IMG/VR virus record: IMGVR_UViG_3300030419_004788
Coordinates: 58,977 to 122,976 of that record
From: a virus
Length of the DNA stretch: 64,000 nucleotides
Reading direction: 5' to 3' (one strand)
Position 1 is the first letter of the stretch, and each line of letters opens with the position of its first letter. The position numbers and the translations under genes were made by a program. Below the pieces are notes generated by a model. The model was not told the DNA's origin, did not search any database, and worked only from the letters and a program-made list of their open reading frames with translations. Shown here piece by piece: positions 1-16,699 of the stretch.

Positions 1-3000
1 AATGCAATCAGGATTCGTACAACATCGTTCTGTGTTTTTATCGTAACATGTCCCACCACAACATTGCTGGTCTGTTCCGGGAACATCAGGACAACAAACA
101 CAATCATAGGGAAAGTCCATATCATATTTACAACAACAAGACTCTGAGCCAGAGTCAGCATTAACCATGTCTGGACACATGGTGTTGTTTTGGCAACAGT
201 GTGAACCATAGTCTGGTCCTCCATCTCGATTGTCGTAACATATTCCGTTACAACATCCAGAGTCTGGATGCCCATACGGGTCGGGATTAACTTTTTTATT
301 CCAACCAGTACTTTCTGTACAGAAACATTCCTCTGTAGTACCCAACCATTTACAAGGAAGAACACATTGTCCAGTTATTTCACAACATTCCTTTCTAAGC
401 ATATGTACACCATTACAACATTCATCATAATCAGGGTCATTCTCATAGCACGCGCCCTTTCCTTCCCAACCACAGTGATTCACTCCTTCGCATGGCGACC
501 CACCTTCACTATTTCGATATAGACAAGGACAATCTTGTCCTGTAAATGCACCAATTGCATCAACATCCACACCATCACATCCTTGTACTGTTGAACAACA
601 AACCCAGTTTCCAGTCGCTGTGCAATTAAAGTCATTTTCTGGGTCGTAACTTATATTACCACCACAATCCCACTCCATTGCCCATCCTGTACAACATTCT
701 CCAAACCATTCTGGTTCGTGTTCGTGTCCAGGCTTGGGTTCACCGGCATCATTACACTCATTTGCAACACAGTTATAACCCATCTCAGTACCGCACACTC
801 TCGGAATAACATAGGAATCCCCATTGCAGTGGTATCTTTCTTCCCAACCACAACAATTTACATTACCATCCCAGCCAGGACAACACGATTCGGGGGTTTG
901 TATCGGGTCACCCAATTTGTCTACTGCATCTGGAATAGTGTTGCCGTTATCACAACAAAGTTTTTCTTTAGAATCAGCACCTTGAATACTCAGACAACAA
1001 GTTTCACCCGGATGAGTGATTATATTATTTTCAATATGTGGATTTAGACAACACGATGGGTCGGGGTCATGCAAAGAATGAGCGCAACATGATTCTCCAG
1101 GTTGAGTCCACTTTGTTTTACATGTTTGATTTGCCCTGAACTGGTAAGAACCATCATCAACAGGACAAGTATTATGGTCTGTAATATAACAACCAACATC
1201 ACCCTCTGTGCCTGTGGGGAAACATGCACCCCAATCGCAAAAACCTGCTGGACCAGGCAAATCATTCCATTGTCCACCAATACCGATACATCCATTTACA
1301 GTATTACATCTACTGCACCAACACTTTCCTGTGTTAGAATCCCACATACCACCCCAAGTATTACATCCACTTTCTTGATAACAATTTTGACATCCACATT
1401 CTATAATGTTCGCACTGCCAGTACATGGGTCGGGGTTATCATCATAGAATATACCACCCTCTTTACAACATGTAGCGGGTTCATAACCAATACCATCAAA
1501 CCATTCAGAGAAACAACAATACTCTGCATCACCATGCCCATCTACTTGCCGTGTACCACCACAACATTTTCCACTTGCAGAGCCGCAACATTCTTGTCCA
1601 GGCATACAACAATTTGCAGGGTCGCCACTCCCCATAGTTGAACCACAATAAAAACCACCAGGACAATCTGTTGGCCAGTATCCGCAACATCTTTCTTCTA
1701 CACAATCACCATCAATACATGTCCAACCGCATGTATCTTCACATTCAAAAGTAACTGGACCACCAACACCAAAACAATCTGTTCCAATTCCACAATCGTT
1801 TACCCCATCACCATCTAAATCTAAACACCCGTTACAGTTTGGAAAATCCCCTTCTTGTTGTGCTGGTCTACAACATCTATAGAATACACTTCTCATCCAC
1901 GGTGGATTGTTTGAATCGATATTTTCACAATCATCTAATGGACTAGGTTCAAATGGATGCCAACAAGTTCCACTACATTGACCACCAAACTGTGGCCAAT
2001 ATGGTAAACATGAATCACCACCTGCCCAACAACAACAACAATATTGTGATGGCTCCCAACACATAAATGCTGTCATAATGTCACATACACTATCACACCC
2101 ATGAAATCCACCACCTCCTGCTTGACATGAACCCTCTGTGGTGTGTATGCATCGTGCGAAAGGTGTATTTGGGTCTACACAACATGCACCATAACAACTA
2201 CCTACATTACAATCTATACATTGTCCTGGATTTGATAAATCATTTTTCTGGTCACCACATTCTCCATTACAACAGCAAGAACCATCTGGACAATCAGAAT
2301 CAGTTGCACAAAGTTCACCAGGGCACACTTCACATACTCCATCATCATTACAACAGAATTGATACCCACCAAAAAGACAATCAGGAACTGGTCCAGTGCC
2401 CACACAACCAGCGCAACAAGAGAAATCACTTGATAAATTTTCACATGTAGTATTGGAGAAAGAACCTCCCGATGCCGTACATGATTCTTGTGTACTATCA
2501 TTTAAAACTGACTCACCATCCACACAAGTACAGCAACAACCACCGCATGAAATTGTATCACAAGATGTACCACTTCCTTGAAATTCACCACCACATGCAC
2601 TTTCTTCTGTCATGGAACATACACCATCAGTGCAACATGCACCAAAACCAAAATTACAAATGCTTGATTTTCCACATTGACAACTTCCTATTGAAGCATC
2701 TGGACAAACGCCTGAGTGCCAACTACCACCAATATATTCACACTCTGAGAATGTTAAATTTTTACAACAGTTAGTTTGTTCTTCTATAGGAGCATCACAA
2801 CAATTACACTGTGAAGAATTTAAACAACAAATTCCTGTGTCACCAAAACAACAAATATCCGTTTCACAGTCAGTTCCTGGTCCCATGAATATACCACCAA
2901 CAGATAAACATTCTTGATTTGTTACATCATAACATTGTTCAAGTTGTTCAAGACAACATGCTCCAACTACAACACTATGGTCGCAACAATCAACACTTCC

Positions 3001-4443
3001 ACAAACACCACCTTCTACTGGAACACCACCTAAAACATATTTGCAAATATTTGATGACACTGAACCAAGTTCACTAGAACCTATACTATCTGCAACACAG
3101 ACACCATCTTTACAACAAGCAATTTCATCACAAGGGCTTGCACACAAATCTTCCATGATATAACAATCAATTGGTATTGGAGTTTCTAGTTCTTTTAAGT
3201 ACCATGCACCATCTTCTGTTTCTGCATCTTCATAATATAAATGAGTCCAGAAACTCCCACCAAAGTAATTACATTCTGCTAAACCCTTTCCTTCTACACA
3301 AATACCAGTTCCAATATAATTTCCCCAATTTCCACCATCACTACAGCAAATTCCTTCAGCAGTTCTTCCACAATTTTCTGAACAGTCAGAAAGCATATTC
3401 CATATTGCCATATTCTTTTCTTCACATATATTTTTTGTTGTATATTCTATACATTGATTTTCGCCTTGGTCATCAACAAAACAACAAGAACCAATGTTTA
3501 TTATACCATCACAATCTCCCTCTGATACTCCATATCCTCTAACTGTAAATGAAGCATTCCATGTAGAACCGCCATCGGTACTTATAAAGTTTATAATATC
3601 TTCTGCACAAGAAAAGTATGCATCATCTTCATCAAAATAGACATTTACTGGCCAGTCCCATATATTATTACTTTGCATAATAATTGTAAAACTAAATACT
3701 TCATCTGAATTAAAGTCACCAGTAAATCCTGCAATCCCTATTGGTGTACTAACTTTATATACAGAAGCGTGTCTGACTTCTAATTGTATTCCTGTTCCAT
3801 CGCCAGCAGTTGGACCAGAATTATCCCAGATTCCACCAGTAATTCCAACAATTTCAACAGATTCTATTTCTGGTAAAAATATAATATTTTCTTCTGGGTC
3901 TAGTGTCACATTATTATCTAAAGACATTATACCACCAGACTCGAAAGTCAACCCCGATGCACTAGCAGTTCCCCCATCAGAAAGATATAAGAATCTGTCT
4001 GTAGCAAGTGTTCCCGCAGATGATACTTGTTTACTATTATCACCACTGATTGCAATTGTTTTACTATCTTGTGAAAGATAAACAGAAACAGAACCATCTG
4101 AAGTGATTCCTCTGAACCACAATGTGGCACCAGTAACACCGTTACCCACTGTACTGAATACAGTTATACCATCACCGAGATTAACCCCATTAACAGTCCC
4201 TGTTGCTCCTGTAATCCCTGCAACACCCTTTATTTGGACTATAGAACCATCTGATAGGTTTAAATTTAAATATGGAAATTCTTTGCTAGTAGAAACAACA
4301 TGGATACCAGTTGCACCAGTATTTCCTGTAGCACCAGTTGCACCAGTATTTCCTGTAGGTCCAGCAACAGTAGCACCACTTGGACCTGATGGACCAATTG
4401 CGTTAAAGTCTGGTGTTATTGAACTACTTCCGATTACTGGCAT
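1..4443 (-). CDS. Giant Cys-rich (GACC-repeat) fibre protein with N-terminal collagen-like GxT repeats; >1481 aa, runs off the left edge; paralog of 4474-10242
   Basis: Not in the ORF track because no stop lies in the window. ATG at 4443 gives MPVIGSSSITPDFNAIGPSGPSG..., near-identical to the 1922 aa ORF. I spot-checked the frame as open at about 3700, 3200, 2600, 2430, 1050 and 1-60 (ends ...CGGTCYDKNTERCCTNPDCI). Confidence 0.85.
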   Translation of the reverse strand, partial: MPVIGSSSITPDFNAIGPSGPSGATVAGPTGNTGATGATGNTGATGIHVVSTSKEFPYLNLNLSDGSIVQIKGVAGITGATGTVNGVNLGDGITVFSTVGNGVTGATLWFRGITSDGSVSVYLSQDSKTIAISGDNSKQVSSAGTLATDRFLYLSDGGTASASGLTFESGGIMSLDNNVTLDPEENIIFLPEIESVEIVGITGGIWDNSGPTAGDGTGIQLEVRHASVYKVSTPIGIAGFTGDFNSDEVFSFTIIMQSNNIWDWPVNVYFDEDDAYFSCAEDIINFISTDGGSTWNASFTVRGYGVSEGDCDGIINIGSCCFVDDQGENQCIEYTTKNICEEKNMAIWNMLSDCSENCGRTAEGICCSDGGNWGNYIGTGICVEGKGLAECNYFGGSFWTHLYYEDAETEDGAWYLKELETPIPIDCYIMEDLCASPCDEIACCKDGVCVADSIGSSELGSVSSNICKYVLGGVPVEGGVCGSVDCCDHSVVVGACCLEQLEQCYDVTNQECLSVGGIFMGPGTDCETDICCFGDTGICCLNSSQCNCCDAPIEEQTNCCKNLTFSECEYIGGSWHSGVCPDASIGSCQCGKSSICNFGFGACCTDGVCSMTEESACGGEFQGSGTSCDTISCGGCCCTCVDGESVLNDSTQESCTASGGSFSNTTCENLSSDFSCCAGCVGTGPVPDCLFGGYQFCCNDDGVCEVCPGELCATDSDCPDGSCCCNGECGDQKNDLSNPGQCIDCNVGSCYGACCVDPNTPFARCIHTTEGSCQAGGGGFHGCDSVCDIMTAFMCWEPSQYCCCCWAGGDSCLPYWPQFGGQCSGTCWHPFEPSPLDDCENIDSNNPPWMRSVFYRCCRPAQQEGDFPNCNGCLDLDGDGVNDCGIGTDCFGVGGPVTFECEDTCGWTCIDGDCVEERCCGYWPTDCPGGFYCGSTMGSGDPANCCMPGQECCGSASGKCCGGTRQVDGHGDAEYCCFSEWFDGIGYEPATCCKEGGIFYDDNPDPCTGSANIIECGCQNCYQESGCNTWGGMWDSNTGKCWCSRCNTVNGCIGIGGQWNDLPGPAGFCDWGACFPTGTEGDVGCYITDHNTCPVDDGSYQFRANQTCKTKWTQPGESCCAHSLHDPDPSCCLNPHIENNIITHPGETCCLSIQGADSKEKLCCDNGNTIPDAVDKLGDPIQTPESCCPGWDGNVNCCGWEERYHCNGDSYVIPRVCGTEMGYNCVANECNDAGEPKPGHEHEPEWFGECCTGWAMEWDCGGNISYDPENDFNCTATGNWVCCSTVQGCDGVDVDAIGAFTGQDCPCLYRNSEGGSPCEGVNHCGWEGKGACYENDPDYDECCNGVHMLRKECCEITGQCVLPCKWLGTTEECFCTESTGWNKKVNPDPYGHPDSGCCNGICYDNRDGGPDYGSHCCQNNTMCPDMVNADSGSESCCCKYDMDFPYDCVCCPDVPGTDQQCCGGTCYDKNTERCCTNPDCI

Positions 4444-4473
4444 TTTTTATTCCTATAGAATCTCCATTTTTAT

Positions 4474-7400
4474 TTATGTTTCGTTTGTACATGCAGGATA
4501 TGGACAACCTTCCTCATCACATCCAATCCATTCACACCTTCCATCTGGAAGTTGAAGATATTGAATATTTCCACTTTCATACCATATAAAGGTACTGCAA
4601 CTGAGGGGGTCACATGTAATACAGTTATCCCAAAAACTACAATCCAAAGTTTCACAACCGCCTTCAGTTCCATCCGCAGGACACGCCCATGAGTTTGCAG
4701 TTGCTCTACAGCACGGTGACAACGACTCACAATACAAATGCGCCGAGTCTGGACTATCTGAATGATGAATAGGCACATCTGCACAACATGCATTACCCTC
4801 ACAATATTGGTCATATAAAGAACAACAACAACAACTATATGAAGGGAAACAGTCTTTCATATTGTCTTCACAAGTTGTGCCTAAACCTTTCCATACACAA
4901 TCAGAACCACTAATTTCACAACTGAACGCATCAGGTTTCAGTTCGCATTCGCAACTTGCATCATCATCCGAAGAACATCCACAACAACAAGCACCTTCTT
5001 GACTGCCCTGCTGACACACAACACTCCCGCAATCTACGAAGCCCTCCCACGAACCTTCATTTGTTTCACATTCATCTTCATTCAACTCATAACAAGTTTC
5101 ATTTATACAACAAGCACCAATTGTTGCACAAGGATTGTTGGTACAGTCTGAACCAGTACCTTCAAAGTCATTTGTACTACAATTATCAACAATTTCTACC
5201 GTACAATTTTCACCATCGCAACAAGCACCGCAACATTCATCATATTCAGCATCTCCTGGTGAGTAATCACCACAAGTTATAGTAGTACAATCAATACCAC
5301 ATAAATCATTTGTACAGACAGAACCCAGACCTTGAAATTCTCCACCTGCAGCGTCACACTGCCATTCTGGAACTCCCTCTAAACCGACTCCATCCGCACC
5401 TATACAAACCTTCCCAAATGTCGGTGATGTCAGACAACACGCACCGCAACATTCATCAAATTCATCATCTCCTGGCGACCAATCACCACAATCTATGGTG
5501 CTACAATCGAGAGTACACTCTGATTGATAATCATTACATGTACTTCCACACCCTTTCCAAACATAACCACTGGTAGTACAGTTTGATGGGATTTCTTCAG
5601 AACAATTAGCACCACAACAATCATCATCCCAACAACATGCACCAGTAGATACTAAACAGTTCGTTCTTGTTGCACATGACTTTTCTTCAAATTGACCTCC
5701 AAAATCATAACATTCAGAACTCAACAAATTATCTTCACAAACAACACAACCATTGTCAATTTGTATGTAACAACAAGAACCATAACAACTATCGATACAA
5801 TCATTACAATCATGAATTATACTATCACAATCGTATGCATTTCCTTGAATAATCTCATCACAACTATATGGACAATTATTATTACAACAATACTTTTGTG
5901 GACAGGTAATACCAGCACAAGTATTTGCATCATTCCAATCACCGCCTGCGTCAGTGCAAACAGTGTCTACAATCCCCACCTCACAAGCACCCCAAGGCCA
6001 ACAACATCGACCAATTGTTATGTTATTGCAGTCAGTTCCTGGTTCATTATTACCATTACAGTCTGCTACACAACAAGTATTACAACCAAGCCAAGTTCCA
6101 CCTGCACCTTTACACGCATCCTCACTACCTCGTTGCTCACATGTTTCATCTGGCATACAACATGCACCATCATAAGATTCCGCAAGGCAGACCGGTCCAT
6201 TTGGAGGGCATAAATGCGTGCCACTAAATGTACCACCATTAGGACAACATTGTGACAATGTATCTTTGCAATCCGTTGGGTTTTCACAATCACCCCAACA
6301 ACATGCACCACAATCGTTACAAGGACAATCATTTGCACATACTTCATTAGGACGCCATATTATGTTTGAGTCTGTTCCCCATCCCACACAGTCAACCTCT
6401 AATACATGGTCGAAGCAAGTTATAGGGCAATCTCCAGCACATGGGCGTTCGCATATTGTACCGAAACGATGGTCACAACACATTCCATAAACTGGTTCAT
6501 CACATATAGTACCATCACCACATGAAGTATTTTTTCCTTTGAATTCATCACCTCTACCGTCACAAATTTCAAAAGTTGTTATATAACACCCACTACCACC
6601 AGAAGAACAACATGCACCTGTTATATCTGAATTACACCAAGTACTTGTTTCAATCCCAGAACAATCTAAATTTGCATCCCATAACCCAAATAATTCTTCA
6701 CATGCACATTCACGCATACTCTCACATACCACAGAACCTGTTCCATCGATATAACAACAGTGGCCATTCACTCCAACATCTAGACAACAAATAGTATTAG
6801 AGCATAATGTTCCTAATCCATGCCAATGATAAGTCCATTGGTTACATTGTTCTTCGGTTTCGATTGTACATGTACCTGTACTATAATCACAGCAAGCACC
6901 AGTTAATTGTTCAAGTTCATCCCCACAACATTTCCTTCCACCCACATCTTTAATCTGCTCGCATGTCAGGTAAGGATTCCATCGGTTACATGCTTCCCCA
7001 CCTCCTGCAACATTTAAACAATAGTCTTCGTCCCAAATAACTCCATCAAAACAAGCATATTCACAGGAATTACATTCTGGATAGTCATTCGAGGATTGTT
7101 TAAAACAACATGCACCGTATCCATTCCCGCTTGGTGGACATACGAAATCAACACATGTCGTTTGGTTGCCATGAAAAACTCCACCGAGAGTAGTGCAATC
7201 ATCCTGTGTGTCCACCATTTGACATTCATCTAGTACACAACATGCACCTATTACTGCATCACCACATGAAGTTGTATTACAAGATGTATTTGCTCCTTGC
7301 CAGTCGTTTATTGGCATCCCCCAACAATCACACTCGGTCATTTCAATACATGTCTTTGCATCTACATCTCCATAGCAACACGCACCTTCATCGACATCAT

Positions 7401-10242
7401 TACAGTTTTGCCAACAATCCACATCACCATCATTGCAATCAGAAGCATCACCGTAATATATTCCATTCAGTTTATCACAATCCGATTCTTCTCGAACAGT
7501 GCATTGTTGGTGGATGCAACATGCACCTGTTGGAATTAATTCACAATCAATGCATGTGTCTGTATCGTCCCCTTGATATACACCACCAATAGCATCACAT
7601 TGAGATTCTTCGTTTATAATACAAGTATATTTCCAACAACACGCACCTGTTGGTGTTACGGGACAATCAACTCCCTTACATGTAATACCGTCACCTTGAT
7701 ATACCCCATCGGCATCATTACATTCTTGTTCAGTATATACATCGACAGCATAACATGTACCATCAATACAACATGCACCTGTCGGGTCTGGAATAATACA
7801 AACATCATCTGAATCACAGTTTGTATTATCACCCTGATAAGTACCTTCTCCGCTTTCACAATTTCTCTGATTTGTTATAGAACATTTACCATTAATACAA
7901 CATGCACCTGTCGGGTCTGGAGTACCACAAGTGTCAGACTTACATTCTAATTCTCCCTGCCACTGACCATCATCATTAATACAGTCGGCTTCTGTTTCCG
8001 TTGTACAGGTATATCCTCTACAACAAGCACCAAATGGGTCTGATTCACACTCTAAACCATCAATACATTTTTTAGAATTCCATTTCCCACCAATTTCACC
8101 ACATTGACAAATATTTAAATCATCACATTGGAATGACTTTAACCCTGTGTCAAACCAACAGCATCCACCAACCGTATCATCCTCACAACACTTTATACCA
8201 TCACAACTATCAGAACCGTTCCAAGTATATCCAAGACTTAGACATATTGTTTCATCTTCTATATAACAATCACCATATCCTCTGCAACATGCACCAATAT
8301 CATCAGTTACCCATCCACATAATTCATCATCACAAGTACTATTATCTCCCATGTATTCACCACCAAGTAATGTTTGGCAATTATTTTTAGTTTGATTGTT
8401 ATAACATTGGTTTGTATAATCCCCATTAATACAACACGCACCTGTTGGTTCGTCTGGTTCTATACAAGATGAAGAAGTCCCACACTGACAACTACTATTT
8501 TCTATACAAGTTCCTTTTTTCCAACTACCTCCAATTCTTTGGCATATCGAATTATTTAAATTTTTACAACAGTTAGAATTTTCTTCTCTTGAGCCACAAC
8601 AATCACACGCATTAGAATTTAAACAACATATTCCTACCTCATCAGAGAAACAGCAAATATCATCTAAACATTCAGTATTTGGACCCATGAATATACCACC
8701 ACTTGTCGTACATTCTAATGCAGATGTTACAACACATCCTTCCATTTCTGGATAACAACATGCACCTTCCATCTTACTATAATTGCAACAATCTACTTCA
8801 CCACACACTGCGTTTTCTATTACTTGTCCACCAAAAACTCTTTTACATATTAGTGGTGAAACAGAACCATGTGTTGTACTTCCTATAGAATCACCAATAC
8901 ACATACCATCTTTACAACAAGCACTTTCTATACAGGGTTCTGCACATAATTTATCATAACCCGCTGGTAATTCCATAGTGCATTTAATTTCTTGTGGTTC
9001 TTCTAATAAATCCCCTTCAATATCATAATAGAAATAATCCCAGAAACTCCCACCAAAGTAATTACATTCTGCAATTCCTGCACCTTGAATACAGAGTCCA
9101 GTTCCATCAAACAATCCCCAATCACCACCTTCACTGCAACAAACACCTTCAGCAGTTCTTCCACAATTATCCGCACAGGAAGTCTGCGCTCCCCAAATTC
9201 CATGATTGAAGTCTTCCTTGCATGAATTTTGAGTAATATATTCTATACATTGTCGCATTCCATTACCATCAATAAAACAACAAGAACCAAATGTTTGTAT
9301 CCCATCACATTCTCCATACTCTGCACCATATCCTCTGGCAGCAAATGAAGCATTCCATGTAGTACCACCATCTGTTGTTATAAAATTGACTATATCTTCT
9401 GCACAAGAAAGGTATGCATCATCTTCATCAAAATAGACATTTGATGGGAAAGTCCATATGTGATTTCCATTAATAATAGCAGAGAAACTAAAGACTTCAC
9501 TAGAATTAAACTCCCCAGTAAATCCACCAATTCCTATAGGTGTATTAATTTTATATACTGAGGCATATCTAACTTCTAATTGTATTCCTTTACCATCCCC
9601 AGCAGTTTCTCCGCCTACAACAACTTCCCCGCCAGTAATTCCTACAATCTCACCAAAACTTTCAACAGAACCAATAGAGATAATATTTTCTTCTGGGTCT
9701 AGTGTCACAGTATTATCTAAAGACATTATACCACCAGATTCAAATGTTAATCCTGAAGCACTCGCAGTTCCTCCATCAGAAAGATATAAGAATCTATCAT
9801 CAGTAAGTGTTCCCGCAGATGATACTTGTTTACCAGTATCACCACTAATAGCAATAGTATTACTATCTTCAGATAAGTAGATAGAAACAGAACCATCAGA
9901 AGTGATTCCTCTAAACCATAATGTAGCACCAGTAACACCGTTGCCTACTGTACTAAATATTGTGATACCATCACCGAGATTAACACCACGAACTGAACCA
10001 GTAGAACCAGTTATTCCCGCAACTCCGTCTATTTGGACTATAGAACCATCTGATAGATGTAAATTTAAATATGGAAATTCTTTGCTAGTAGAAACAACAT
10101 GAATGCCTGTAGAACCAGTATTTCCTGTAGCACCAGTTGCACCAGTATTTCCTGTAGGTCCAGAAACAGTAGCACCACTTGGACCAGAAGGTCCTATTGC
10201 GTTAAAATCTGGTGTTACTGAACTGCTTCCGATTACTGGCAT
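4474..10242 (-). CDS. Giant Cys-rich (GACC-repeat) fibre protein, 1922 aa
   Basis: N-terminal GPTGNTGATGATG collagen-like triplets; tail-fibre-type motif WTFPSNVYF...DIVNFITTDGGTTW; then dozens of GACC...C...C..GG.(F/W).G..C repeats; TATAAATA late promoter upstream at 10276-10283. Confidence 0.85.
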   Translation of the reverse strand: MPVIGSSSVTPDFNAIGPSGPSGATVSGPTGNTGATGATGNTGSTGIHVVSTSKEFPYLNLHLSDGSIVQIDGVAGITGSTGSVRGVNLGDGITIFSTVGNGVTGATLWFRGITSDGSVSIYLSEDSNTIAISGDTGKQVSSAGTLTDDRFLYLSDGGTASASGLTFESGGIMSLDNTVTLDPEENIISIGSVESFGEIVGITGGEVVVGGETAGDGKGIQLEVRYASVYKINTPIGIGGFTGEFNSSEVFSFSAIINGNHIWTFPSNVYFDEDDAYLSCAEDIVNFITTDGGTTWNASFAARGYGAEYGECDGIQTFGSCCFIDGNGMRQCIEYITQNSCKEDFNHGIWGAQTSCADNCGRTAEGVCCSEGGDWGLFDGTGLCIQGAGIAECNYFGGSFWDYFYYDIEGDLLEEPQEIKCTMELPAGYDKLCAEPCIESACCKDGMCIGDSIGSTTHGSVSPLICKRVFGGQVIENAVCGEVDCCNYSKMEGACCYPEMEGCVVTSALECTTSGGIFMGPNTECLDDICCFSDEVGICCLNSNACDCCGSREENSNCCKNLNNSICQRIGGSWKKGTCIENSSCQCGTSSSCIEPDEPTGACCINGDYTNQCYNNQTKNNCQTLLGGEYMGDNSTCDDELCGWVTDDIGACCRGYGDCYIEDETICLSLGYTWNGSDSCDGIKCCEDDTVGGCCWFDTGLKSFQCDDLNICQCGEIGGKWNSKKCIDGLECESDPFGACCRGYTCTTETEADCINDDGQWQGELECKSDTCGTPDPTGACCINGKCSITNQRNCESGEGTYQGDNTNCDSDDVCIIPDPTGACCIDGTCYAVDVYTEQECNDADGVYQGDGITCKGVDCPVTPTGACCWKYTCIINEESQCDAIGGVYQGDDTDTCIDCELIPTGACCIHQQCTVREESDCDKLNGIYYGDASDCNDGDVDCWQNCNDVDEGACCYGDVDAKTCIEMTECDCWGMPINDWQGANTSCNTTSCGDAVIGACCVLDECQMVDTQDDCTTLGGVFHGNQTTCVDFVCPPSGNGYGACCFKQSSNDYPECNSCEYACFDGVIWDEDYCLNVAGGGEACNRWNPYLTCEQIKDVGGRKCCGDELEQLTGACCDYSTGTCTIETEEQCNQWTYHWHGLGTLCSNTICCLDVGVNGHCCYIDGTGSVVCESMRECACEELFGLWDANLDCSGIETSTWCNSDITGACCSSGGSGCYITTFEICDGRGDEFKGKNTSCGDGTICDEPVYGMCCDHRFGTICERPCAGDCPITCFDHVLEVDCVGWGTDSNIIWRPNEVCANDCPCNDCGACCWGDCENPTDCKDTLSQCCPNGGTFSGTHLCPPNGPVCLAESYDGACCMPDETCEQRGSEDACKGAGGTWLGCNTCCVADCNGNNEPGTDCNNITIGRCCWPWGACEVGIVDTVCTDAGGDWNDANTCAGITCPQKYCCNNNCPYSCDEIIQGNAYDCDSIIHDCNDCIDSCYGSCCYIQIDNGCVVCEDNLLSSECYDFGGQFEEKSCATRTNCLVSTGACCWDDDCCGANCSEEIPSNCTTSGYVWKGCGSTCNDYQSECTLDCSTIDCGDWSPGDDEFDECCGACCLTSPTFGKVCIGADGVGLEGVPEWQCDAAGGEFQGLGSVCTNDLCGIDCTTITCGDYSPGDAEYDECCGACCDGENCTVEIVDNCSTNDFEGTGSDCTNNPCATIGACCINETCYELNEDECETNEGSWEGFVDCGSVVCQQGSQEGACCCGCSSDDDASCECELKPDAFSCEISGSDCVWKGLGTTCEDNMKDCFPSYSCCCCSLYDQYCEGNACCADVPIHHSDSPDSAHLYCESLSPCCRATANSWACPADGTEGGCETLDCSFWDNCITCDPLSCSTFIWYESGNIQYLQLPDGRCEWIGCDEEGCPYPACTNET

Positions 10243-10287
10243 TGTGTTTCATTCCTTGTAGAAGTTTCCATAATATATTTATATCAA

Positions 10288-13200
10288 CTACCCACAGGAA
10301 TTGCCATCTGGGCATTCACCGCCAGCAACACCACCATTACATGTTCCTCGATGTACCCAACAACCACCGAAAAATTGACAACGAGTTTCATTCATTTGGT
10401 GTGCATAGTATCCACTCCATCCTTGTTCAATACAATCTCCTGCTTGTGGAATTTGCCAATCGTTAAATTCATATAACCATGTTAGATGGGAAGGTAATGC
10501 CCAATTATCTGTGAAGCAACAACAACCATCCATATTGACATTATTACAATTATTATCTGGGAAAGAAGTACCATGTTTAAGTGCCATACAAACTTCATCA
10601 GCACTTAGCCATGGATGAGCGGGGCTTCCTTCACTACCAATCCATTCACACGAACGACCAACAGTTTCGTTGATAGCGTCCTCTCCTTCATTCAACCACC
10701 AACAACATGATGTCATTAGTTCTGAAGTATCAAATCCATCTGGGCAGGGTTCACCTCTTTCATCACAGCAAGACATATTGGTTTTGTCAGTAATTCCTTT
10801 ATCGAAATTACCACCAATATTTTTCCCCTGCAATGCAGTACCATCATAGTCACAACAACACTCATAAGGAGTGCCATCTGCTAATATAATACTACCTGTC
10901 TGCATTGATGTTGTGGAAATTGTAACATCTTCACCACCACATGAAATTGCATGACCAATTTGATTTAAAGTGTCTTTTATATCATTAATTCCAATCATTG
11001 AATAATATTCACTGCTTGTTGCAAGGGGACTTACCCATTCAGGGTGTGTATTTTCTGTTCCTACATCAACACATATAGCGTAAATGATAACACCATCATT
11101 CTTTAGATTTTCCGCTTCTGCTATCGCTGCCTCTGCTTCTGCTGAAGAACGGAAGTTTCCATTGGATATTATTATTAATATTTTTCCATGAGTATGATTC
11201 AGTTCAGTGTTTATTCTATTTGTAACAATTTCAAAATCACCCCTAACAAGTTGCAATGGTCTGGTGAGTACTCTATCACCTATTGCCATACTGTATATGC
11301 CTTCTTTTACTCTTGCATAATTATTGGTAAGAGAAATATCTACTGAAGTGTCTGTAAATACTGAATCATTAAATCCTATTTTTTCATATCTTGAATCTAA
11401 TTGGTCTACAAACGAAGTAAGTGCAGGTTTAATAATATTTGAGAATTGGAACATTTCTATATTTGTATCTGCGAGCAACATAACATCTGGACTGCTTGTT
11501 AAACTTCGACATTCATCTGCAAGTAAGTGTTCACCACCCAAAGAAGTTGGGGGTCCTATTGGGTCGGGTGTATTATAATTGTTGGTAGAACATCCACTCC
11601 AGAAAATATGAGAGTAAGAATTATCGATACCATCATTTAAATCTGAACATGCTCGACTTGTTTTCTGCTCACATCCCCATACACCTTCAAAAGTGAGATG
11701 ACAACACATACCTAAACATTCTTCTTCTATATTCACACTGCCTGGTTGACATATTGGAAGGTCTTCTATATAACACTGACCAGGTCCATCACCATAACCA
11801 ACTTCAGGACATTCACAAATATTCCCACCAAAGTCTTCACACACACCACCTATACTTTGTTGCCATCCACGACATAAAGGACATGGTGCATATATTGGTG
11901 GGTCGTAAGGAACTCCATTTTCATCTAAACAAAGTCCATCAACATTAACAAAACCAGCAGGACCACCATTCTCTGTTGGCCAGTTATCAATATCTGTTCC
12001 ACTTTCACGACACCATGTACAACTAAATGGTGCATATGCCGCACCTTCATAATCTCCACCACCACCAATCCTATTTGGTCCAGCACAACGAGAACCAACA
12101 CCCCAGAAAGTTCCTTTAGAACCATCCGATGCAGTAAGATTTACACAAACTGAAGGGGAAGTTTCATAACATCTAGCAGATGTATTGGTATCACCGACAC
12201 AACAAGCACCGATGCTTCCTTCTAGGCAACAGTTTACAGCATCTTCTCCTGTACACGAACCACCAATAAAGAATACACTATTAGGTTCAAACGAACATTG
12301 ATATTCACTCATTTCATAACAAGCATTTTCTACACAACAAGCACCTGTTTCTTGACACGGTTCTGGACAACCTCCTAAAATTTCAACATCAACACAAGTC
12401 TTTCCTTCAACATAGAAACCACCATAAATATTTCTACATCTATTCAAAGAAGTTTCTGCACATATTCCATTTACACAACAAGCACCTTCCGAATAACAAT
12501 TTGGTCCTTCTGGTCTTGAAAGACAAGTTGTTGTATCAAATACACCACCCAGATTTGTGCAGTAATCTTCTGTAACATAATCCACACATCCAGGATAATC
12601 ATCTTCACCTATTGTATTATCTGTACAATAACAACAAGAACCTAGATTGCTAGAATCTGCGGCATATAAAGTATCATTTATAGTCTTTGAATTATCAAAT
12701 ACATGTTTTACATCTGTGGAAGTTCCTAATACAGAATCATGTGTTTGTCCCATATGGAATCCAGAATATATTTCAGTTTTACCATCAGCATTTGTGCTGA
12801 TATATGTGAATGGAACAAATTCACCAGTTTGACCAGCAGTAGAACCAACAGTCGAAGTGTTTTCAATAGAATCTTCTTTCTCTAGATTGACTGATGATTT
12901 TGCTTCTCTAAATGTTGTTAATCTTGCTATAAGATTTTTCTTATCATCATCCCAAAAAGTATTTAATGAACCATGTGCGGATAATCCATCATATATGTGT
13001 ACCAATTCTCCAGTATTTCCCATAATACCATATTGATATGTTGCACCCCTTATTCGTATATCATAATCTGTGACTCCGAGTATAGAAATATCTCTACCAC
13101 TAGAAGTAAGGGTTCTAAAATATGCAGTACCGCCAGCAGTACCGTCTGATATTAATTCTTTAAAAATTTCACTATATGGAGAATTGGTAGTAGCATTATC

Positions 13201-13551
13201 AATATCAGAAGATGTATGCCATTGACCAGAATCAAAAGTAATACCATCACCTGTTGCACCTGTACAACCTTCGACTGCAATTGTTGTTCCTGTGTCGATG
13301 GTAAATGTAAGTGTTCCAAGACCATACGAATTACCACCAGAGGTTATACCATATGAAAATCCTGAAGTTCCATCATCAAAATCATACCATTCAAATGTAA
13401 TTCCAGAACCAGTAATACCAGTAGCACCTGTTGGACCAGTAACACCAGTAGCACCAGTTGGACCTGTTGGACCTGTATTACCTGTGGGTCCTTGAATCGA
13501 ACCCATAGCACTCGTGTCGTGTATTCTACTTGAGCCGTGAATTACTGCCAT
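10288..13551 (-). CDS. Cys-rich collagen-anchored fibre protein with an internal VWA-like domain, 1087 aa
   Basis: GPTGNTGPTGPTG N-terminus; GACC repeats; VWA-like segment DVMLLAD...KILIIISNG...AENLKNDGVIIYAICV. Confidence 0.75.
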   Translation of the reverse strand: MAVIHGSSRIHDTSAMGSIQGPTGNTGPTGPTGATGVTGPTGATGITGSGITFEWYDFDDGTSGFSYGITSGGNSYGLGTLTFTIDTGTTIAVEGCTGATGDGITFDSGQWHTSSDIDNATTNSPYSEIFKELISDGTAGGTAYFRTLTSSGRDISILGVTDYDIRIRGATYQYGIMGNTGELVHIYDGLSAHGSLNTFWDDDKKNLIARLTTFREAKSSVNLEKEDSIENTSTVGSTAGQTGEFVPFTYISTNADGKTEIYSGFHMGQTHDSVLGTSTDVKHVFDNSKTINDTLYAADSSNLGSCCYCTDNTIGEDDYPGCVDYVTEDYCTNLGGVFDTTTCLSRPEGPNCYSEGACCVNGICAETSLNRCRNIYGGFYVEGKTCVDVEILGGCPEPCQETGACCVENACYEMSEYQCSFEPNSVFFIGGSCTGEDAVNCCLEGSIGACCVGDTNTSARCYETSPSVCVNLTASDGSKGTFWGVGSRCAGPNRIGGGGDYEGAAYAPFSCTWCRESGTDIDNWPTENGGPAGFVNVDGLCLDENGVPYDPPIYAPCPLCRGWQQSIGGVCEDFGGNICECPEVGYGDGPGQCYIEDLPICQPGSVNIEEECLGMCCHLTFEGVWGCEQKTSRACSDLNDGIDNSYSHIFWSGCSTNNYNTPDPIGPPTSLGGEHLLADECRSLTSSPDVMLLADTNIEMFQFSNIIKPALTSFVDQLDSRYEKIGFNDSVFTDTSVDISLTNNYARVKEGIYSMAIGDRVLTRPLQLVRGDFEIVTNRINTELNHTHGKILIIISNGNFRSSAEAEAAIAEAENLKNDGVIIYAICVDVGTENTHPEWVSPLATSSEYYSMIGINDIKDTLNQIGHAISCGGEDVTISTTSMQTGSIILADGTPYECCCDYDGTALQGKNIGGNFDKGITDKTNMSCCDERGEPCPDGFDTSELMTSCCWWLNEGEDAINETVGRSCEWIGSEGSPAHPWLSADEVCMALKHGTSFPDNNCNNVNMDGCCCFTDNWALPSHLTWLYEFNDWQIPQAGDCIEQGWSGYYAHQMNETRCQFFGGCWVHRGTCNGGVAGGECPDGNSCG

Positions 13552-13552
13552 A

Positions 13553-16500
13553 TTATTGATTAATTCCTTGGTCTGAATCTCTTATTACTTTTGGTAAATC
13601 CCAAAGTTTTTGGTTTGCATGACCACCAGTAGCATATTTACCATCGCATCTGATTAAACGAATTGGTCTTACCTTATATGTATTTCGTGTTCTGTTTTTC
13701 TTTCCTACAAGGAAATTATTTTCTTTTTCATTTATATCGAACTTCATTGCCCATGCAAGACTGCCTGCATCTGCGGTAGAACCACCACTACCTATAACTC
13801 CTTCTCCCGATGCAGTTCTTCCTTTTGTTTCATCGAATGCACCAGTAGATGTCCAGTGCCAACCATCAAGTGGAACAGCACCTTTTATTAAGAGAGAAGC
13901 ATTTAAATCAAAATCGTGTGGATTACTGCTTACACAATTTGAAGCAATGAATGACATTTCATCATGACTTGGAATATACCACGATGAAACTACAGCATCA
14001 TTTGTTCCAGTTCCACCAGTAATAGTTGTTAAGTTATCATCCATTAATCTTGTTGCTCGGAATGCAGAAATATAGTCACTCGTCAATCCTGGACCAAAGT
14101 CTGTTGATGAATAGTGACCATCTTTATCATCATATCCTTCATATAATACATTGTCAGCATTAATGATTCTAATGGTATTATAAATTCCCCAGTTCCTGTG
14201 CCAAAGTCCATGTGCAGACTGCAAAGGTTTTGTGGTAAGTTTTTGTGCATATCCCGAACCAAGTCTTCGTGCATTCCTACAAGATGTAAATGTGTGACTT
14301 CCTAAAACATTTAATGATTTCTCACCAATATTTTCATTAAACCAATATCCTTCGGAAAGTTTAAATACTGTTTGAATATAATTTTCGTGTATTTCATCAA
14401 CCTGTCCTGTATCTGGATTGTGCAATGGTCCCCATGAACTTCCTCTATTACCCCAATAGAATTCTTGAGTTGCACCATCAAAGTCTGAATTATAATAGTT
14501 TATAACTTGTCTGTCGCCAGTTATTGCAACTGGTGATGGTGAGATTATCATATAATATGCATCTGGTCTAGATAACTCATCGTCCTCTAATGGTAATCTA
14601 TCATAATCTGGACATCCTTTTTCTGAAGTAAAACCATATCCATGCCAGTCATATTTAGAACGATATAAATCACAGGTTAATCCTAAATTGTCCGATAAAG
14701 AACCAGTTGCACCAAGCATTAAGTTTTGCCAATCAGCATCTTTACTTTCACCAAAACTTTTAGAACCAAATACCTGTGAACCAAATGGTCTATAGAGTCC
14801 AACTACAACACCACCTGCATATTCATCTCCAGGCATAAGGTCTAATCCTGCAACAACTGGAACACAACTACTGTGTTCGTCTGTTCTGTGTCTGGTATCT
14901 TCACACTTTGTACCCTTGCCTGCATATAAGTTACCACCACTTATACAGTCACTTCCTGTAATCCCATTACCACATGTTCCACCAGAATAATAGCAAGCAC
15001 CTGTTCCTCCATAACAAATTTCAGTTCCATCATCTAATGAACATACACTTCCTTCTCCATGAAAATAATAACCAAGTGCAAGACATTCTTTTCTTGTTCT
15101 TTGTGAACATCCTCCTCTACCATCACAACATGCACCCAAACCTCTACTAGCATTATCACAGTCCATGTTTCTACAGTCTGCTGATAGTCCACCAAATGAA
15201 GTTTCTACATCTAAAAGTTCACCGAGATTTATACAATCATCTACACTTAAATCATTAAAACATTCTATCTTTCCACTGTTTGTGTAGTGAACACAACACG
15301 CACCTGTATCAAAACAAATACTTCCTGTCCATCCACTAGTTAGTCCACCACATACTGTATTAGAACCGTGCCAATATCCTGTGCATAAATCTTCTATTGT
15401 GTGTATACATTCACCTTCTCCTCTACAACACGCACCTGTAGAACCAGTTGCACCAAATAGTTTTCTTTCACTACCCTTATATGAAACTTGTTCTTCTGGA
15501 TAATATAAAAACTCACCGCATTGTTTTTCTCTATCATGACAGAAAAATGGGTCATCAGAAGTTCCTTCTGATATAACAGTACCAGCAGAATTCCATTGAA
15601 CTATGTTTCCATGCCACGCTACACCATCTGGACAAATTCTACCGCCTGGGCAATCAGAATTTCTTGTTTCACATGGCAACCAGAAGAAGTTAAATATATC
15701 TGTTCCACCACTAAAACAAGGTTGTCTGTCGAATGGCCATATAACATTAGAAAATTGAAAATTGTTTTGAGGTCCATATGTTGCACCCTTAACTATAAGT
15801 GTAAAGGATTTACCTATATCATTTAATGTACCTATATTATTTCCAGTGTATCCAAAACTTGCATCTGCAATATCAATCGTTTGTATTGGTCCAGTACTAC
15901 CTACACTATAATCAAAATCATTAAGAGCAGTTAAGTCCAATTCAACTACACCAAATTTGTTTGGTTCTAACACACCACCAATTCCACCAGACTGCAACAC
16001 ATATGGTGGCCAAGCACCATCATATGTTGTAATTTCATATGTTGTTCCTGCTCCATCGTTATTGTGTCGGAAACTTAAATACTTTGAGTTTTCTCTATAA
16101 CTTTTTAGTCTAACACTAATACCACCAGAAGTTCCACTTATATTATAAGTTGCTCCAGTAAGTCCTGTTAATTGTCCACCAACTAACTGTCCAGTAACCC
16201 CCGAACCACCTGTAACATCTAAGTAACCAAAGTTTCCTCGGTCATAATTTAAGTCGATTGTATTTAAATGTTCTAATGTTGTGTTTGTTAAAACACCACC
16301 AGTACCTTCGATGCTTCTTATAGTAATTTTATTTGAAGAATCTTGAACCTTAAATACTGTAGCACCACCAGAACCACCAAATCCTAATAGATTTTCACCA
16401 TAGGTATTTCCACCATCTATGATAGTTTCTGTATTACCAGTAGGTCCTATAATAGAAGTGGGAGTTGTCCAAGTGGTAATAACAGAAGTTCCACCATCTT

Positions 16501-16699
16501 CAAACCTTTCAAATTGTGTGTAGAGTCCATCCGTTGCATTTATAGACATTGCAGTGATACCACCACCACTCCAACCAATAGGTCCTTCAACTGTTGGTCC
16601 ATCAGGTCCAGTAGGTCCCGTTTCACCAGTGTTACCAGTCGGTCCAGTTACTTCGGTTGCCCCAACGACTTTAAAATAACTGCTACCATATACTACCAT
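13553..16699 (-). CDS. Cys-rich collagen-anchored fibre protein with a C-terminal DUF1566/Lcl-type (C-type lectin fold) domain, 1048 aa
   Basis: GPTGNTGETGPTG N-terminus; GACC repeats; C-terminal motifs GDEYAGGVVVG, WYIPSHDEM, WHWTST, AWAMKF, YKVRPIR. Confidence 0.75.
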   Translation of the reverse strand: MVVYGSSYFKVVGATEVTGPTGNTGETGPTGPDGPTVEGPIGWSGGGITAMSINATDGLYTQFERFEDGGTSVITTWTTPTSIIGPTGNTETIIDGGNTYGENLLGFGGSGGATVFKVQDSSNKITIRSIEGTGGVLTNTTLEHLNTIDLNYDRGNFGYLDVTGGSGVTGQLVGGQLTGLTGATYNISGTSGGISVRLKSYRENSKYLSFRHNNDGAGTTYEITTYDGAWPPYVLQSGGIGGVLEPNKFGVVELDLTALNDFDYSVGSTGPIQTIDIADASFGYTGNNIGTLNDIGKSFTLIVKGATYGPQNNFQFSNVIWPFDRQPCFSGGTDIFNFFWLPCETRNSDCPGGRICPDGVAWHGNIVQWNSAGTVISEGTSDDPFFCHDREKQCGEFLYYPEEQVSYKGSERKLFGATGSTGACCRGEGECIHTIEDLCTGYWHGSNTVCGGLTSGWTGSICFDTGACCVHYTNSGKIECFNDLSVDDCINLGELLDVETSFGGLSADCRNMDCDNASRGLGACCDGRGGCSQRTRKECLALGYYFHGEGSVCSLDDGTEICYGGTGACYYSGGTCGNGITGSDCISGGNLYAGKGTKCEDTRHRTDEHSSCVPVVAGLDLMPGDEYAGGVVVGLYRPFGSQVFGSKSFGESKDADWQNLMLGATGSLSDNLGLTCDLYRSKYDWHGYGFTSEKGCPDYDRLPLEDDELSRPDAYYMIISPSPVAITGDRQVINYYNSDFDGATQEFYWGNRGSSWGPLHNPDTGQVDEIHENYIQTVFKLSEGYWFNENIGEKSLNVLGSHTFTSCRNARRLGSGYAQKLTTKPLQSAHGLWHRNWGIYNTIRIINADNVLYEGYDDKDGHYSSTDFGPGLTSDYISAFRATRLMDDNLTTITGGTGTNDAVVSSWYIPSHDEMSFIASNCVSSNPHDFDLNASLLIKGAVPLDGWHWTSTGAFDETKGRTASGEGVIGSGGSTADAGSLAWAMKFDINEKENNFLVGKKNRTRNTYKVRPIRLIRCDGKYATGGHANQKLWDLPKVIRDSDQGINQ

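What the first reader, a model, noticed from the sequence alone, without database searches (positions are those of the whole stretch)
1..16699. Array of four giant collagen-anchored, ultra-Cys-rich fibre genes with different binding modules
Seen: four consecutive ORFs (>1481, 1922, 1087, 1048 aa) follow the baseplate genes. All start with a GSS motif and (Gly-x-Thr)n triplets and carry many GACC...C...C..GG.(F/W).G..C repeats; for example, 12 of 55 residues in CCLNSNACDCC...CQCGTSSSC are Cys. With the 1363 aa and 637 aa genes, more than 20 kb of the window encodes Cys-repeat proteins. Known: T4-type fibres are typically Cys-poor trimeric beta structures folded in the reducing cytoplasm. Inference: this is a different virion appendage architecture, a disulfide- or metal-stapled repeat stalk carrying interchangeable heads (VWA, Lcl lectin, GATase-like). 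The repeat looks borrowed from Phycisphaerae-type secreted proteins and may mimic or bind the host surface layer.
Basis: partly seen in the sequence, partly recalled or inferred. Interest (0 to 1): 0.85.

Follow-up and report, generated by a model that had tools for sequence, protein, structure and literature searches.

The report
Cysteine-bead tail fibres, marine phage
An uncultured marine T4-like phage carries, where tail-fibre genes normally sit, a row of giant proteins built from an uncatalogued six-cysteine "bead" also found in secreted proteins of planctomycete bacteria; they are probably disulfide-stiffened host-binding fibres, but this is untested.

Summary
Four co-directional ORFs lie at window 1-16699, on the minus strand. 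The first runs off the window and is 1653 aa when complete. A fifth gene of 568 aa follows beyond the edge.

All carry a ~43-aa six-cysteine "GACC" module. F2 has at least 25 copies and is 13% Cys; F4 has exactly 4. Pfam, NCBIfam and PHROGs hold no model for it.

The genes sit between the baseplate wedge genes and neck gp14, in the host-recognition slot of T4-like marine phages. The four in-window proteins start with an invariant GSS motif followed by 6-10 collagen-like GxT triplets.

Heads:
- F4 ends in an Lcl_C-type C-type-lectin fold (Z 8.6 to PDB 8q4e).
- F3 holds an internal VWA domain, shown by Pfam in an ortholog and by Foldseek, with a degenerate MIDAS motif.
- The "GATase-like" head was not supported.

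More than 100 marine phage clusters keep F4, followed by 1-4 hypervariable bead proteins. The bead is abundant (6884 clusters) in signal-peptide proteins of Phycisphaerae, other Planctomycetota and Eisenbacteria.

Virion location, disulfide versus metal chemistry and the host are all inferred, not shown. This scan has already noted the same bead fibres on other phage genomes.

Verdict: a new variant of a known kind (phage receptor-binding fibres).

The parts
1..4443 (-). F1, bead fibre gene. It is cut by the window edge; the complete gene is 1653 aa (L001:8458-13419:-). The N-terminal ~600 aa are paralogous to F2. The distal ~900 aa are a different, CC-doublet-rich, uncatalogued Cys region.
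4474..10242 (-). F2, 1922-aa bead fibre gene with 249 Cys (13.0%).
4813..9297 (-). F2 bead array (aa ~316-1810): at least 25 six-Cys 'GACC' units of ~40-49 aa, with some longer or irregular units.
10276..10283 (-). T4-type late-promoter-like TATAAATA, 34 nt upstream of the F2 start codon.
   Evidence: The motif is not enriched in the window as a whole (7 matches against 6.3 expected), but 5 of the 7 matches lie 16-34 nt upstream of structural-gene starts.
10288..13551 (-). F3, 1087-aa fibre gene. Order of parts: GSS + 10 GXY triplets, beta-rich N-domain, 4 beads, Cys-rich linker, VWA domain, Cys-rich C-terminal region.
12067..12651 (-). F3 bead block (aa ~301-495).
10930..11493 (-). F3 internal VWA / integrin-I-like domain (aa ~687-874). 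The MIDAS positions read D-T-N-I-E and S-N-G instead of DxSxS and T-D-G.
13553..16699 (-). F4, 1048-aa conserved core fibre gene of the clade.
14900..15445 (-). F4 bead block (aa ~419-600). It has exactly 4 units, with Cys invariant across 69 aligned orthologs. Each unit is predicted as strand-strand-helix-strand at pLDDT 80-90.
13556..14881 (-). F4 head (aa ~607-1048): an Lcl_C-type C-type-lectin-like fold with large insertions.
16592..16645 (-). F4 collagen-like segment of 6 GXY triplets. The equivalents are F3 13402-13491 (10 triplets), F2 10099-10161 and F1 4300-4362 (7 triplets each).
27889..31980 (-). Related 1363-aa protein with at least 9 beads, lying between the two hub pieces. It is outside the array and has no GSS/collagen start.
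42072..43985 (+). 637-aa protein with only 2-3 degenerate bead-like units (2.8% Cys). It is a marginal member.

Best explanation
These genes are the host-recognition (tail-fibre / receptor-binding) module of a clade of uncultured marine T4-like phages.

Each protein has three sections:
1. A shared N-terminal docking and trimerisation piece. This is an invariant GSS strand, 6-10 collagen-like GxT triplets and a beta-rich domain.
2. A stalk made of 4 to about 30 small strand-strand-helix-strand beads, each held by six invariant cysteines. The cysteines most likely form three disulfides. These would form when the particle meets oxic seawater, or late in infection.
3. In some members, an adhesin-type binding domain. 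F4 has an Lcl_C / C-type-lectin fold. F3 has a VWA domain.

F4 is the conserved core fibre. The genes after it are hypervariable: they keep the N-terminal anchor and change bead number and distal parts by unit duplication, deletion and cassette exchange. That is how phages usually retune host range.

Shown here: gene order, domain identities, conservation, and the distribution of the bead.
Inferred: virion location, trimer state, disulfide chemistry and binding role.
For: Position:
- Order along the transcribed strand is gp53, hub pieces, gp25, gp6, wedge-like genes, a phrog_4492 'tail fiber' gene, F4-F3-F2-F1-F5, then neck gp14, gp15 and TerL.
- This is the VrlC-to-gp14 'host recognition cluster' described for cyano- and pelagimyophages (PMC7029224).
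- Gaps between the genes are 1-45 nt. A late-promoter-like TATAAATA lies 34 nt before F2.

Fibre character:
- PHROG tail-fibre hits and BclA-like GPT repeats at the N-termini.
- Foldseek of the F4 model against BFVD returns many annotated phage tail fibres at probability 1.0.
- The F4 N-domain resembles tailspike N-domains, but weakly (Z 4.4-5.3).

Heads:
- F4 head: 8q4e (Lcl C-terminal domain) Z 8.6, rmsd 3.0, 126 of 131 residues aligned; 4eps Z 10.5; also Mtd, TvpA and the Bd2740 fibre tip at Z 5-6. Pfam Lcl_C matches weakly in 6 of 14 orthologs.
- F3: its ortholog P0331 passes Pfam VWA at 35.1 bits against a cut-off of 23.8. The model matches TRAP, CMG2 and integrin I domains at probability 1.0.

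Mosaicism:
- F1 and F2 are close to 90% identical over the first ~300 aa, then diverge completely beyond about aa 600.
- 18 IMG/VR loci keep F4 with 4 beads, followed by 1-4 variable proteins of 885-2430 aa carrying 4-29 beads. All start with GSS plus collagen-like triplets, except one extra protein in L007.
- Adjacent units are 90% identical at DNA level, 129 nt apart. A 99.3%-identical variant lacks 138 aa.
- Natural populations keep the frame open through an in-frame indel and compensated frameshift pairs.

Disulfide reading:
- Six Cys are invariant in 2104 bacterial units and in F4 orthologs.
- 118 of 141 bacterial holders have signal-peptide-like N-termini, so they are extracytoplasmic.
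- Disulfide-linked fibres are proven in cyanophage Pam3.
Against: - There are no virion proteomics and no cultured relative. tblastn of F2 and F4 against 50,697 phage records finds nothing.
- The phage proteins have no signal peptide and are made in a reducing cytoplasm.
- No Erv, DsbA or free thioredoxin/glutaredoxin gene was found in the contig. The contig is only 68% complete.
- The collagen-like runs are short, and Pfam Collagen is below its cut-off.
- F1 and F2 have no recognisable binding head.
- F5 lacks the GSS/collagen anchor. Its similarity to the F4 head is motif-level only (hhalign probability 28%).
- The last genes of the array sit at the T4 'wac' position, so some could be neck whiskers or decoration rather than baseplate fibres.
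Confidence: 0.65

Rival explanations
1. The beads are metal-stapled rather than disulfide-bonded. For example, each unit could hold a Zn(Cys)4 site plus one further Cys pair. That would let them fold in the reducing cytoplasm before lysis.
For: The proteins lack signal peptides. No thiol oxidase was found in the 68%-complete contig. Small cytoplasmic Cys-rich modules are usually zinc binders (general knowledge).
Against: Six cysteines, not four or eight, are invariant, and no conserved His or Asp accompanies them. The same module in bacteria sits in signal-peptide proteins with dockerin, peptidase and P-domains, which are extracytoplasmic and where disulfides are the rule. The only weak solved-structure match is a disulfide-rich extracellular region.
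Confidence: 0.15
2. Some or all of these proteins are not baseplate fibres. They could be neck whiskers at the wac position, capsid or tail decoration adhesins of the Hoc/Ig-like type that stick virions to particles or mucus, or soluble proteins released at lysis.
For: The distal genes F1 and F5 lie just before the neck genes, where T4 has wac. F5 has no GSS/collagen anchor. A 1363-aa bead protein sits elsewhere, among the hub genes. In bacteria the bead serves as a generic extracellular spacer for many unrelated domains.
Against: F4 is a constant-length core gene directly following the wedge and fibre genes in all 18 loci. The invariant shared N-terminal motif argues for one common docking site. 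F4 resembles annotated tail fibres in BFVD.
Confidence: 0.15
3. The bead was captured from the host, and the phage clade infects Planctomycetota (Phycisphaerae-like) bacteria. The fibres would then mimic or engage the host's own bead-bearing surface proteins.
For: Named holders of the bead are almost all Phycisphaerae, other Planctomycetota or Eisenbacteria. Of 80 loci listed, 57 are Planctomycetota and 36 of those are Phycisphaerae. The phage also encodes a protein with a borderline PEP-CTERM tail, which would fit a host with an exosortase.
Against: There is no host link of any kind: no spacer, prophage or tRNA evidence. The phage is 33-43% GC, while the bacterial holders have strongly GC-type amino-acid usage, with an (A+G+P+R)/(F+I+K+N+Y) ratio of 2.3 against about 1.1 in the phage proteins. 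TerL is closest to cyanomyoviruses at 60%. Sharing a domain shows neither the direction of transfer nor the host.
Confidence: 0.25

Closest known systems
Host recognition cluster / tail-fibre module of marine T4-like myophages (cyanomyophages and pelagimyophages; PMC7029224)
   Same: The position is the same: between the baseplate wedge genes and neck gp14. The region is hypervariable, holds large modular proteins, and includes collagen repeats and lectin-type domains among the putative receptor-binding proteins.
   Different: Here the cluster is compact, with five genes and no glycosyltransferases. It is built around a six-Cys bead that is not reported for those phages. There is no detectable sequence match to any of 50,697 deposited phage genomes.
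Unnamed six-cysteine 'GACC' repeat of secreted Planctomycetota (mainly Phycisphaerae) and Eisenbacteria proteins
   Same: The ~43-aa module is the same, with the same six invariant Cys and the GG.(F/W/Y).G motif. A phage-derived HMM hits 6884 cluster representatives, 616 of them at E<=1e-30.
   Different: The bacterial proteins have signal peptides and dockerin, T9SS or PEP-CTERM-like tails, and carry peptidase, P-domain or CHRD modules. The phage proteins have none of these. They start instead with a GSS/collagen anchor.
Legionella pneumophila Lcl: collagen-like region plus C-terminal Lcl_C domain (PF07603; PDB 8q4e)
   Same: Both combine a collagen-like N-terminal segment with an Lcl_C-type C-type-lectin-like C-terminal domain. 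For the F4 head: Z 8.6, rmsd 3.0, 126 of 131 residues aligned, 19% identity.
   Different: F4 has only 6 triplets. It has four Cys beads and a beta-rich domain in between, and large insertions in the head. Pfam Lcl_C matches orthologs only weakly, and does not match F4 itself. Its binding specificity is unknown.
Cyanophage Pam3 disulfide-linked tail fibres and wedge (PMC9942802)
   Same: It is an aquatic myophage whose tail components depend on disulfide bonds, shown by cryo-EM, MS and DTT treatment.
   Different: In Pam3 a few cysteines tie the fibre to the wedge. Here hundreds of cysteines would form intramodule staples along the stalk. The proteins are not homologous.
C-type-lectin-fold receptor-binding tips (BPP-1 Mtd, DGR variable proteins TvpA and TaqVP, Bdellovibrio fibre tip Bd2740)
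   Same: The F4 head shares this fold class (Z 5.2-6.1) and sits at the end of a fibre-like protein.
   Different: No DGR (reverse transcriptase with template repeat) was looked for or seen near the array. The similarity is at fold level only.
iRhom homology domain of animal iRhom1/2 (PDB 8snl, 9o58, 9q7y)
   Same: One F4 bead superposes on about 40 residues of it: Z 3.6-3.9, rmsd 1.8-1.9, 16-18% identity.
   Different: The match is very weak and short. I did not check it directly.

Membership tests
GACC six-cysteine bead (uncatalogued family) | A ~43-aa unit with G-A/S-C-C, then C, C, GG.(F/W/Y).G, C, C; six conserved Cys | tested here: met
   Alignment A1. Local HMM counts per protein. Six Cys are ~100% conserved in 2104 bacterial units and invariant in F4 orthologs.
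GACC six-cysteine bead (uncatalogued family) | Three intramodule disulfide bonds | not testable with these tools
Cys presence/absence covariation was uninformative because no Cys is ever missing.
Collagen triple helix repeat (PF01391) | Long uninterrupted G-X-Y runs scoring above the Pfam cut-off | tested here: inconclusive
   Runs are 6-10 triplets long. Pfam scores F3 at 16.5 bits against a cut-off of 27.2. BclA GPT repeats match at E 2e-7 to 1.6e-10.
VWA domain (PF00092) | Sequence match above the Pfam gathering score | tested here: inconclusive
   F3 itself gives no hit at E<=1. Its ortholog P0331, 48% identical over this region, scores 35.1 bits against a cut-off of 23.8, E 2e-8.
VWA domain (PF00092) | Rossmann-like alpha/beta fold of integrin I / TRAP type | tested here: met
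   Foldseek gives probability 1.00 and TM (target) ~0.6 to 4hqf, 7n1o, 3n2n and 5hj2, with 45 hits at E<=1e-3. The model's pLDDT is 65-91 in this part but low elsewhere.
VWA domain (PF00092) | Intact MIDAS motif (DxSxS ... T ... D) | tested here: not met
   F3 reads D-T-N-I-E, and S-N-G in place of T-D-G. Close orthologs read D-T-S-I-E.
Lcl C-terminal domain (PF07603, formerly DUF1566) | Sequence match to the Pfam model | tested here: inconclusive
   6 of 14 orthologous C-termini match, best E 0.0099. F4 itself does not match.
Lcl C-terminal domain (PF07603, formerly DUF1566) | C-type-lectin-like fold covering the whole domain | tested here: met
   8q4e: Z 8.6, rmsd 3.0, 126 of 131 residues aligned. 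4eps: Z 10.5. These stand above the next rows at Z ~6. Head pLDDT is mostly 80-95.
T4 fibre families (gp12, gp34-37, wac) | Sequence homology to T4-type fibre proteins | tested here: not met
   PHROG hits are restricted to the collagen-like N-terminus. Pfam finds no fibre family. tblastn against the phage collection finds nothing.
Virion structural protein | Physical presence in purified particles | not testable with these tools
   Only synteny, a late-promoter-like motif and fold resemblance to tail fibres are available.
   No Pfam hit at E<=1 for aa 1-600. Atlas neighbours score only 0.84 and are unrelated. The region was not folded.

The most novel reading that the evidence does not exclude
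This clade is the first T4-like phage group of Planctomycetota (Phycisphaerae-type hosts). Its fibres would be built from a surface-protein bead captured from the host. They would fold or lock only by oxidation after lysis, so that infectivity is switched on by the redox jump from cytoplasm to seawater.
Probability: 0.15. Interest if true: 0.85.

Novelty: new variant of a known kind. Interest (0 to 1): 0.6.

Why it matters
Phage receptor-binding fibres are normally cysteine-poor trimeric beta structures. A widespread ocean phage clade that builds its fibres from dozens of six-cysteine beads would be a different engineering solution. It also raises a direct question: how does a protein with about 250 cysteines fold in, and leave, a reducing cell?

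The bead is also one of the larger protein families absent from Pfam and NCBIfam. It has thousands of clusters in Planctomycetota and Eisenbacteria, so defining it would improve annotation of many bacterial surface proteins.

The shared module is a possible, but unproven, clue to the host of an abundant uncultured phage group.

Tried and rejected
- Pfam, NCBIfam and PHROGs on all bead proteins and on the isolated 'heads' gave no family except weak collagen and tail-fibre N-terminal hits. NCBIfam and Pfam on bacterial holders gave only dockerin-type tails.
- tblastn of F2 and F4 against the phage collection gave no match.
A degenerate DNA pattern was used instead.
- Profile searches of the PDB sequences with the F4 and F3 families gave only collagen-like hits.
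- Tandem Repeats Finder found no DNA-level array for the beads, only the collagen triplets. The units are old and divergent apart from a few recent duplications.
- Cys co-absence analysis, meant to infer disulfide pairing, was uninformative.
- Erv/ALR and DsbA were not found. Thioredoxin and glutaredoxin models hit only the thioredoxin-like part of the glutamine synthetase fusion, below their cut-offs. The record is 68% complete, so this does not show absence.
- The Atlas search on the N-terminal half of the 1363-aa protein gave nothing above chance.
- F5 against the F4 family profile gave only motif-level similarity.
- No RNA holder was listed for F2 among public runs.
- The 'goes back' joint in the laid contigs is the paralogous F1 start, not a rearrangement.
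- A weak bead-HMM hit on an antisense ORF at window ~41159-41500 overlaps a plus-strand gene and was dismissed.
- Literature searches found no description of this repeat or of Cys-bead phage fibres.
Full report
**What is there.**
The window is the right-hand 64 kb of a 122,976-bp viral contig, which CheckV rates 68% complete. Four long co-directional ORFs lie on the minus strand at 13553-16699 (F4, 1048 aa), 10288-13551 (F3, 1087 aa), 4474-10242 (F2, 1922 aa) and 1-4443 (F1).

On the whole contig, F1 is complete at 1653 aa. A fifth related gene, F5 (568 aa), follows it just outside the window.

Cys content:

| Protein | Cys % |
|---|---|
| F1 | 11.8 |
| F2 | 13.0 |
| F3 | 6.1 |
| F4 | 3.2 |
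| F5 | 5.1 |

Almost every other ORF of the contig is at 0-3%.

**The repeat.**
Cutting F2 at each G-x-C-C gives 28 units, most of them 40-49 aa long. Fourteen clean units align to xxTGACCxxxxxCxxxTExxCxxxGGxxxGxxxxCxxxxC, with six conserved Cys.

A local HMM, iterated once, finds:
- at least 25 units in F2
- at least 9 in the 1363-aa protein at 27889-31980
- 6 in F1
- 4 in F4
- 4 in F3
- 3-4 in F5
- 2-3 weak units in the 637-aa protein

The distal ~900 aa of F1 are Cys-rich in a different, CC-doublet style that the HMM does not recognise.

Pfam, NCBIfam and PHROGs have no model for the unit, either in the phage proteins or in bacterial proteins that are full of it.

**Genomic context.**
Reading along the transcribed strand, the order is:
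- gp53
- two hub pieces around the 1363-aa gene
- gp25, gp6, a wedge-like 413-aa gene
- three conserved genes, one of them a phrog_4492 'tail fiber'
- a 440-aa gene
- F4, F3, F2, F1, F5
- two small genes
- neck gp14, gp15 and the large terminase

This is the T4 gp9-gp12/wac position. It is also the 'host recognition cluster' between the wedge genes and gp14 described for cyano- and pelagimyophages, where collagen repeats and lectin-type domains were noted among putative receptor-binding proteins (PMC7029224).

TerL is about 60% identical to cyanomyovirus TerL. gp6 is only about 28% identical. So this is a separate marine T4-like lineage.

Gaps between the array genes are 1-45 nt. A TATAAATA motif lies 34 nt before the F2 start. 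The motif is not enriched in the window as a whole (7 matches against 6.3 expected), but 5 of the 7 matches lie 16-34 nt upstream of structural-gene starts.

**N-terminal anchor.**
F1-F4 all begin x-x-(I/V)-x-G-S-S, followed by 6-10 G-X-Y triplets, mostly GxT. These match BclA-type GPT repeats and tail-fibre PHROGs.

F1 and F2 are close to 90% identical over the first ~300 aa. They stay similar to about aa 600 and are then unrelated. F3 is distantly similar to F2 and F4 over the first ~200 aa. F5 lacks this anchor.

**Heads.**
A deep alignment of F4 orthologs (69 sequences) gave an AlphaFold model with pLDDT 80-95 over aa 420-1048.

The head (aa ~607-1016) matches:

| Structure | Z | rmsd | Aligned |
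|---|---|---|---|
| Bacteroides fimbrial protein 4eps | 10.5 | 4.9 | 212 |
| Legionella Lcl C-terminal domain 8q4e | 8.6 | 3.0 | 126 of 131 |

At Z 5-6 it also matches other C-type-lectin-fold binders: PvdO, TvpA, the Bdellovibrio fibre tip Bd2740 and Mtd. Pfam Lcl_C matches 6 of 14 orthologous C-termini weakly. Against viral models, the best matches are annotated tail fibres.

F3 has an insert at aa ~687-874 that is present only in the closer orthologs. One ortholog passes Pfam VWA at 35.1 bits. The model of this part matches TRAP, CMG2 and integrin I domains at probability 1.0. The MIDAS residues are not canonical in F3.

F1 and F2 have no recognisable head. F5 shares only the W-x-IPS-x-D...W-x-WTST motifs with the F4 head.

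**The bead fold.**
In the F4 model each unit is strand-strand-helix-strand at pLDDT 80-90. The only solved match is about 40 residues of chains in ADAM17-iRhom complexes (Z 3.6-3.9, rmsd 1.8-1.9).

The residue numbering differs by 29 between entries, and one matched chain comes from an iRhom1 complex. I did not check this directly, and the match is weak.

**Conservation in phages.**
F4 has more than 100 cluster-level relatives, all from marine metagenomes and nearly all 930-1100 aa long. Of 92, 83 have exactly four beads, and the bead Cys are invariant.

In 18 IMG/VR loci, the block gp6...F4 is syntenic and constant in size. It is followed by 1-4 proteins of 885-2430 aa with 4-29 beads. All start with GSS plus collagen triplets, except one extra gene in L007. 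So F4 is a core fibre and the rest are a hypervariable set.

Variation arises in several ways:
- Recent unit duplication: 50 nt at 90% identity, 129 nt apart. A second pair is 82% identical, 216 nt apart.
- Deletion: a 99.3%-identical variant lacks 138 aa.
- Apparent cassette replacement between 8040 and 8284, seen in two seawater runs.

Near-identical F2 DNA occurs in at least 10 seawater runs from about 9 studies. The differences seen are substitutions, a 3-nt insertion and compensated frameshift pairs, so the frame is kept open.

**Distribution in bacteria.**
The phage-derived HMM hits 6884 representatives at E<=1e-3 and 616 at E<=1e-30.

The top 150 hits are almost all bacterial proteins. 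Of the 141 that begin with M, 118 have signal-peptide-like N-termini. None of the phage proteins does.

Named holders are Phycisphaerae, other Planctomycetota and Candidatus Eisenbacteria. In them the bead is fused to S8 and M12 peptidases, P-domains, dockerins, CHRD and multicopper oxidase domains.

A degenerate DNA pattern for GACCLPDGxC listed 80 loci:

| Group | Loci |
|---|---|
| Phycisphaerae | 36 |
| Other Planctomycetota | 21 |
| Eisenbacteria | 10 |
| Zixibacteria | 1 |
| Unclassified | 6 |
| Other (probably chance) | 6 |

One Eisenbacteria genome holds at least 132 units. The direction of transfer and the host remain open. The bacterial holders use GC-type amino acids, unlike the phage proteins.

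**How it most likely works.**
The shared GSS/collagen N-terminus and beta-rich domain probably trimerise the protein and dock it to a common site on the baseplate periphery. That would give a phage with several different fibres, as in multi-tailspike phages.

The beads would form a stiff, protease-resistant spacer. The Lcl_C-type and VWA domains, and unknown distal Cys modules, would bind host surface ligands.

Because the bacterial homologs are extracytoplasmic, three disulfides per bead is the simplest reading. In the phage they would have to form late in infection or after release.

Disulfide-dependent fibre attachment is experimentally established in cyanophage Pam3 (PMC9942802), so the idea has precedent. 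No thiol oxidase was found in the incomplete contig, and metal stapling cannot be excluded. Virion location, oligomer state, redox chemistry and ligand are all inferences.

**Novelty.**
I found no paper describing the bead or bead-built phage fibres.

Within this scan, the same bead fibres were already reported on other phage genomes, and the bead on a planctomycete protein. This window is therefore a further, particularly rich example, not a first sighting.

I class it as a new variant of a known kind (modular phage receptor-binding fibres) built on an uncatalogued domain family.

Noticed in passing
window 45056-45466 (-): A 136-aa protein ends in ...VPAPG + hydrophobic stretch + RRRR. NCBIfam PEP_CTERM scores it at 15.6 bits against a cut-off of 16. 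It may be a phage-encoded exosortase substrate, which would imply a host with an exosortase. The second candidate (62389-63117) gave no hit.
   Followed up: partly
window 10276, 20433, 27877, 36505, 37084: Five of the seven TATAAATA matches lie 16-34 nt upstream of start codons of structural genes, consistent with T4-type late promoters. The total count is not above chance.
   Followed up: partly
window 8040-8284 (F2 aa ~653-734): Contigs from two independent seawater runs leave the reference at 8040 and rejoin at 8284 with other sequence. This suggests a two-bead cassette has been replaced in natural variants.
   Followed up: no
L007:19468-23142 (+): A related phage has an extra bead protein of more than 1225 aa with 15 units. 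It lacks the GSS/collagen start and begins with a Cys-rich segment.
   Followed up: no
L001:6723-8429 (-), i.e. 547-2253 bases before the window start: The fifth array gene, F5 (568 aa), starts directly with beads and has no anchor. It ends in a region sharing only the WxIPSxD / WxWTST motifs with the F4 head.
   Followed up: partly
G003 (Candidatus Eisenbacteria MAG behind L022): A single bacterial genome holds at least 132 bead units spread over many genes. The family is greatly expanded in Eisenbacteria as well as in Planctomycetota.
   Followed up: no
window 1-2700 (F1 aa ~640-1500): The distal half of F1 is a second kind of Cys-rich sequence, with many CC doublets and about 12% Cys. The bead HMM does not recognise it, and it has no hit in any library.
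   Followed up: no
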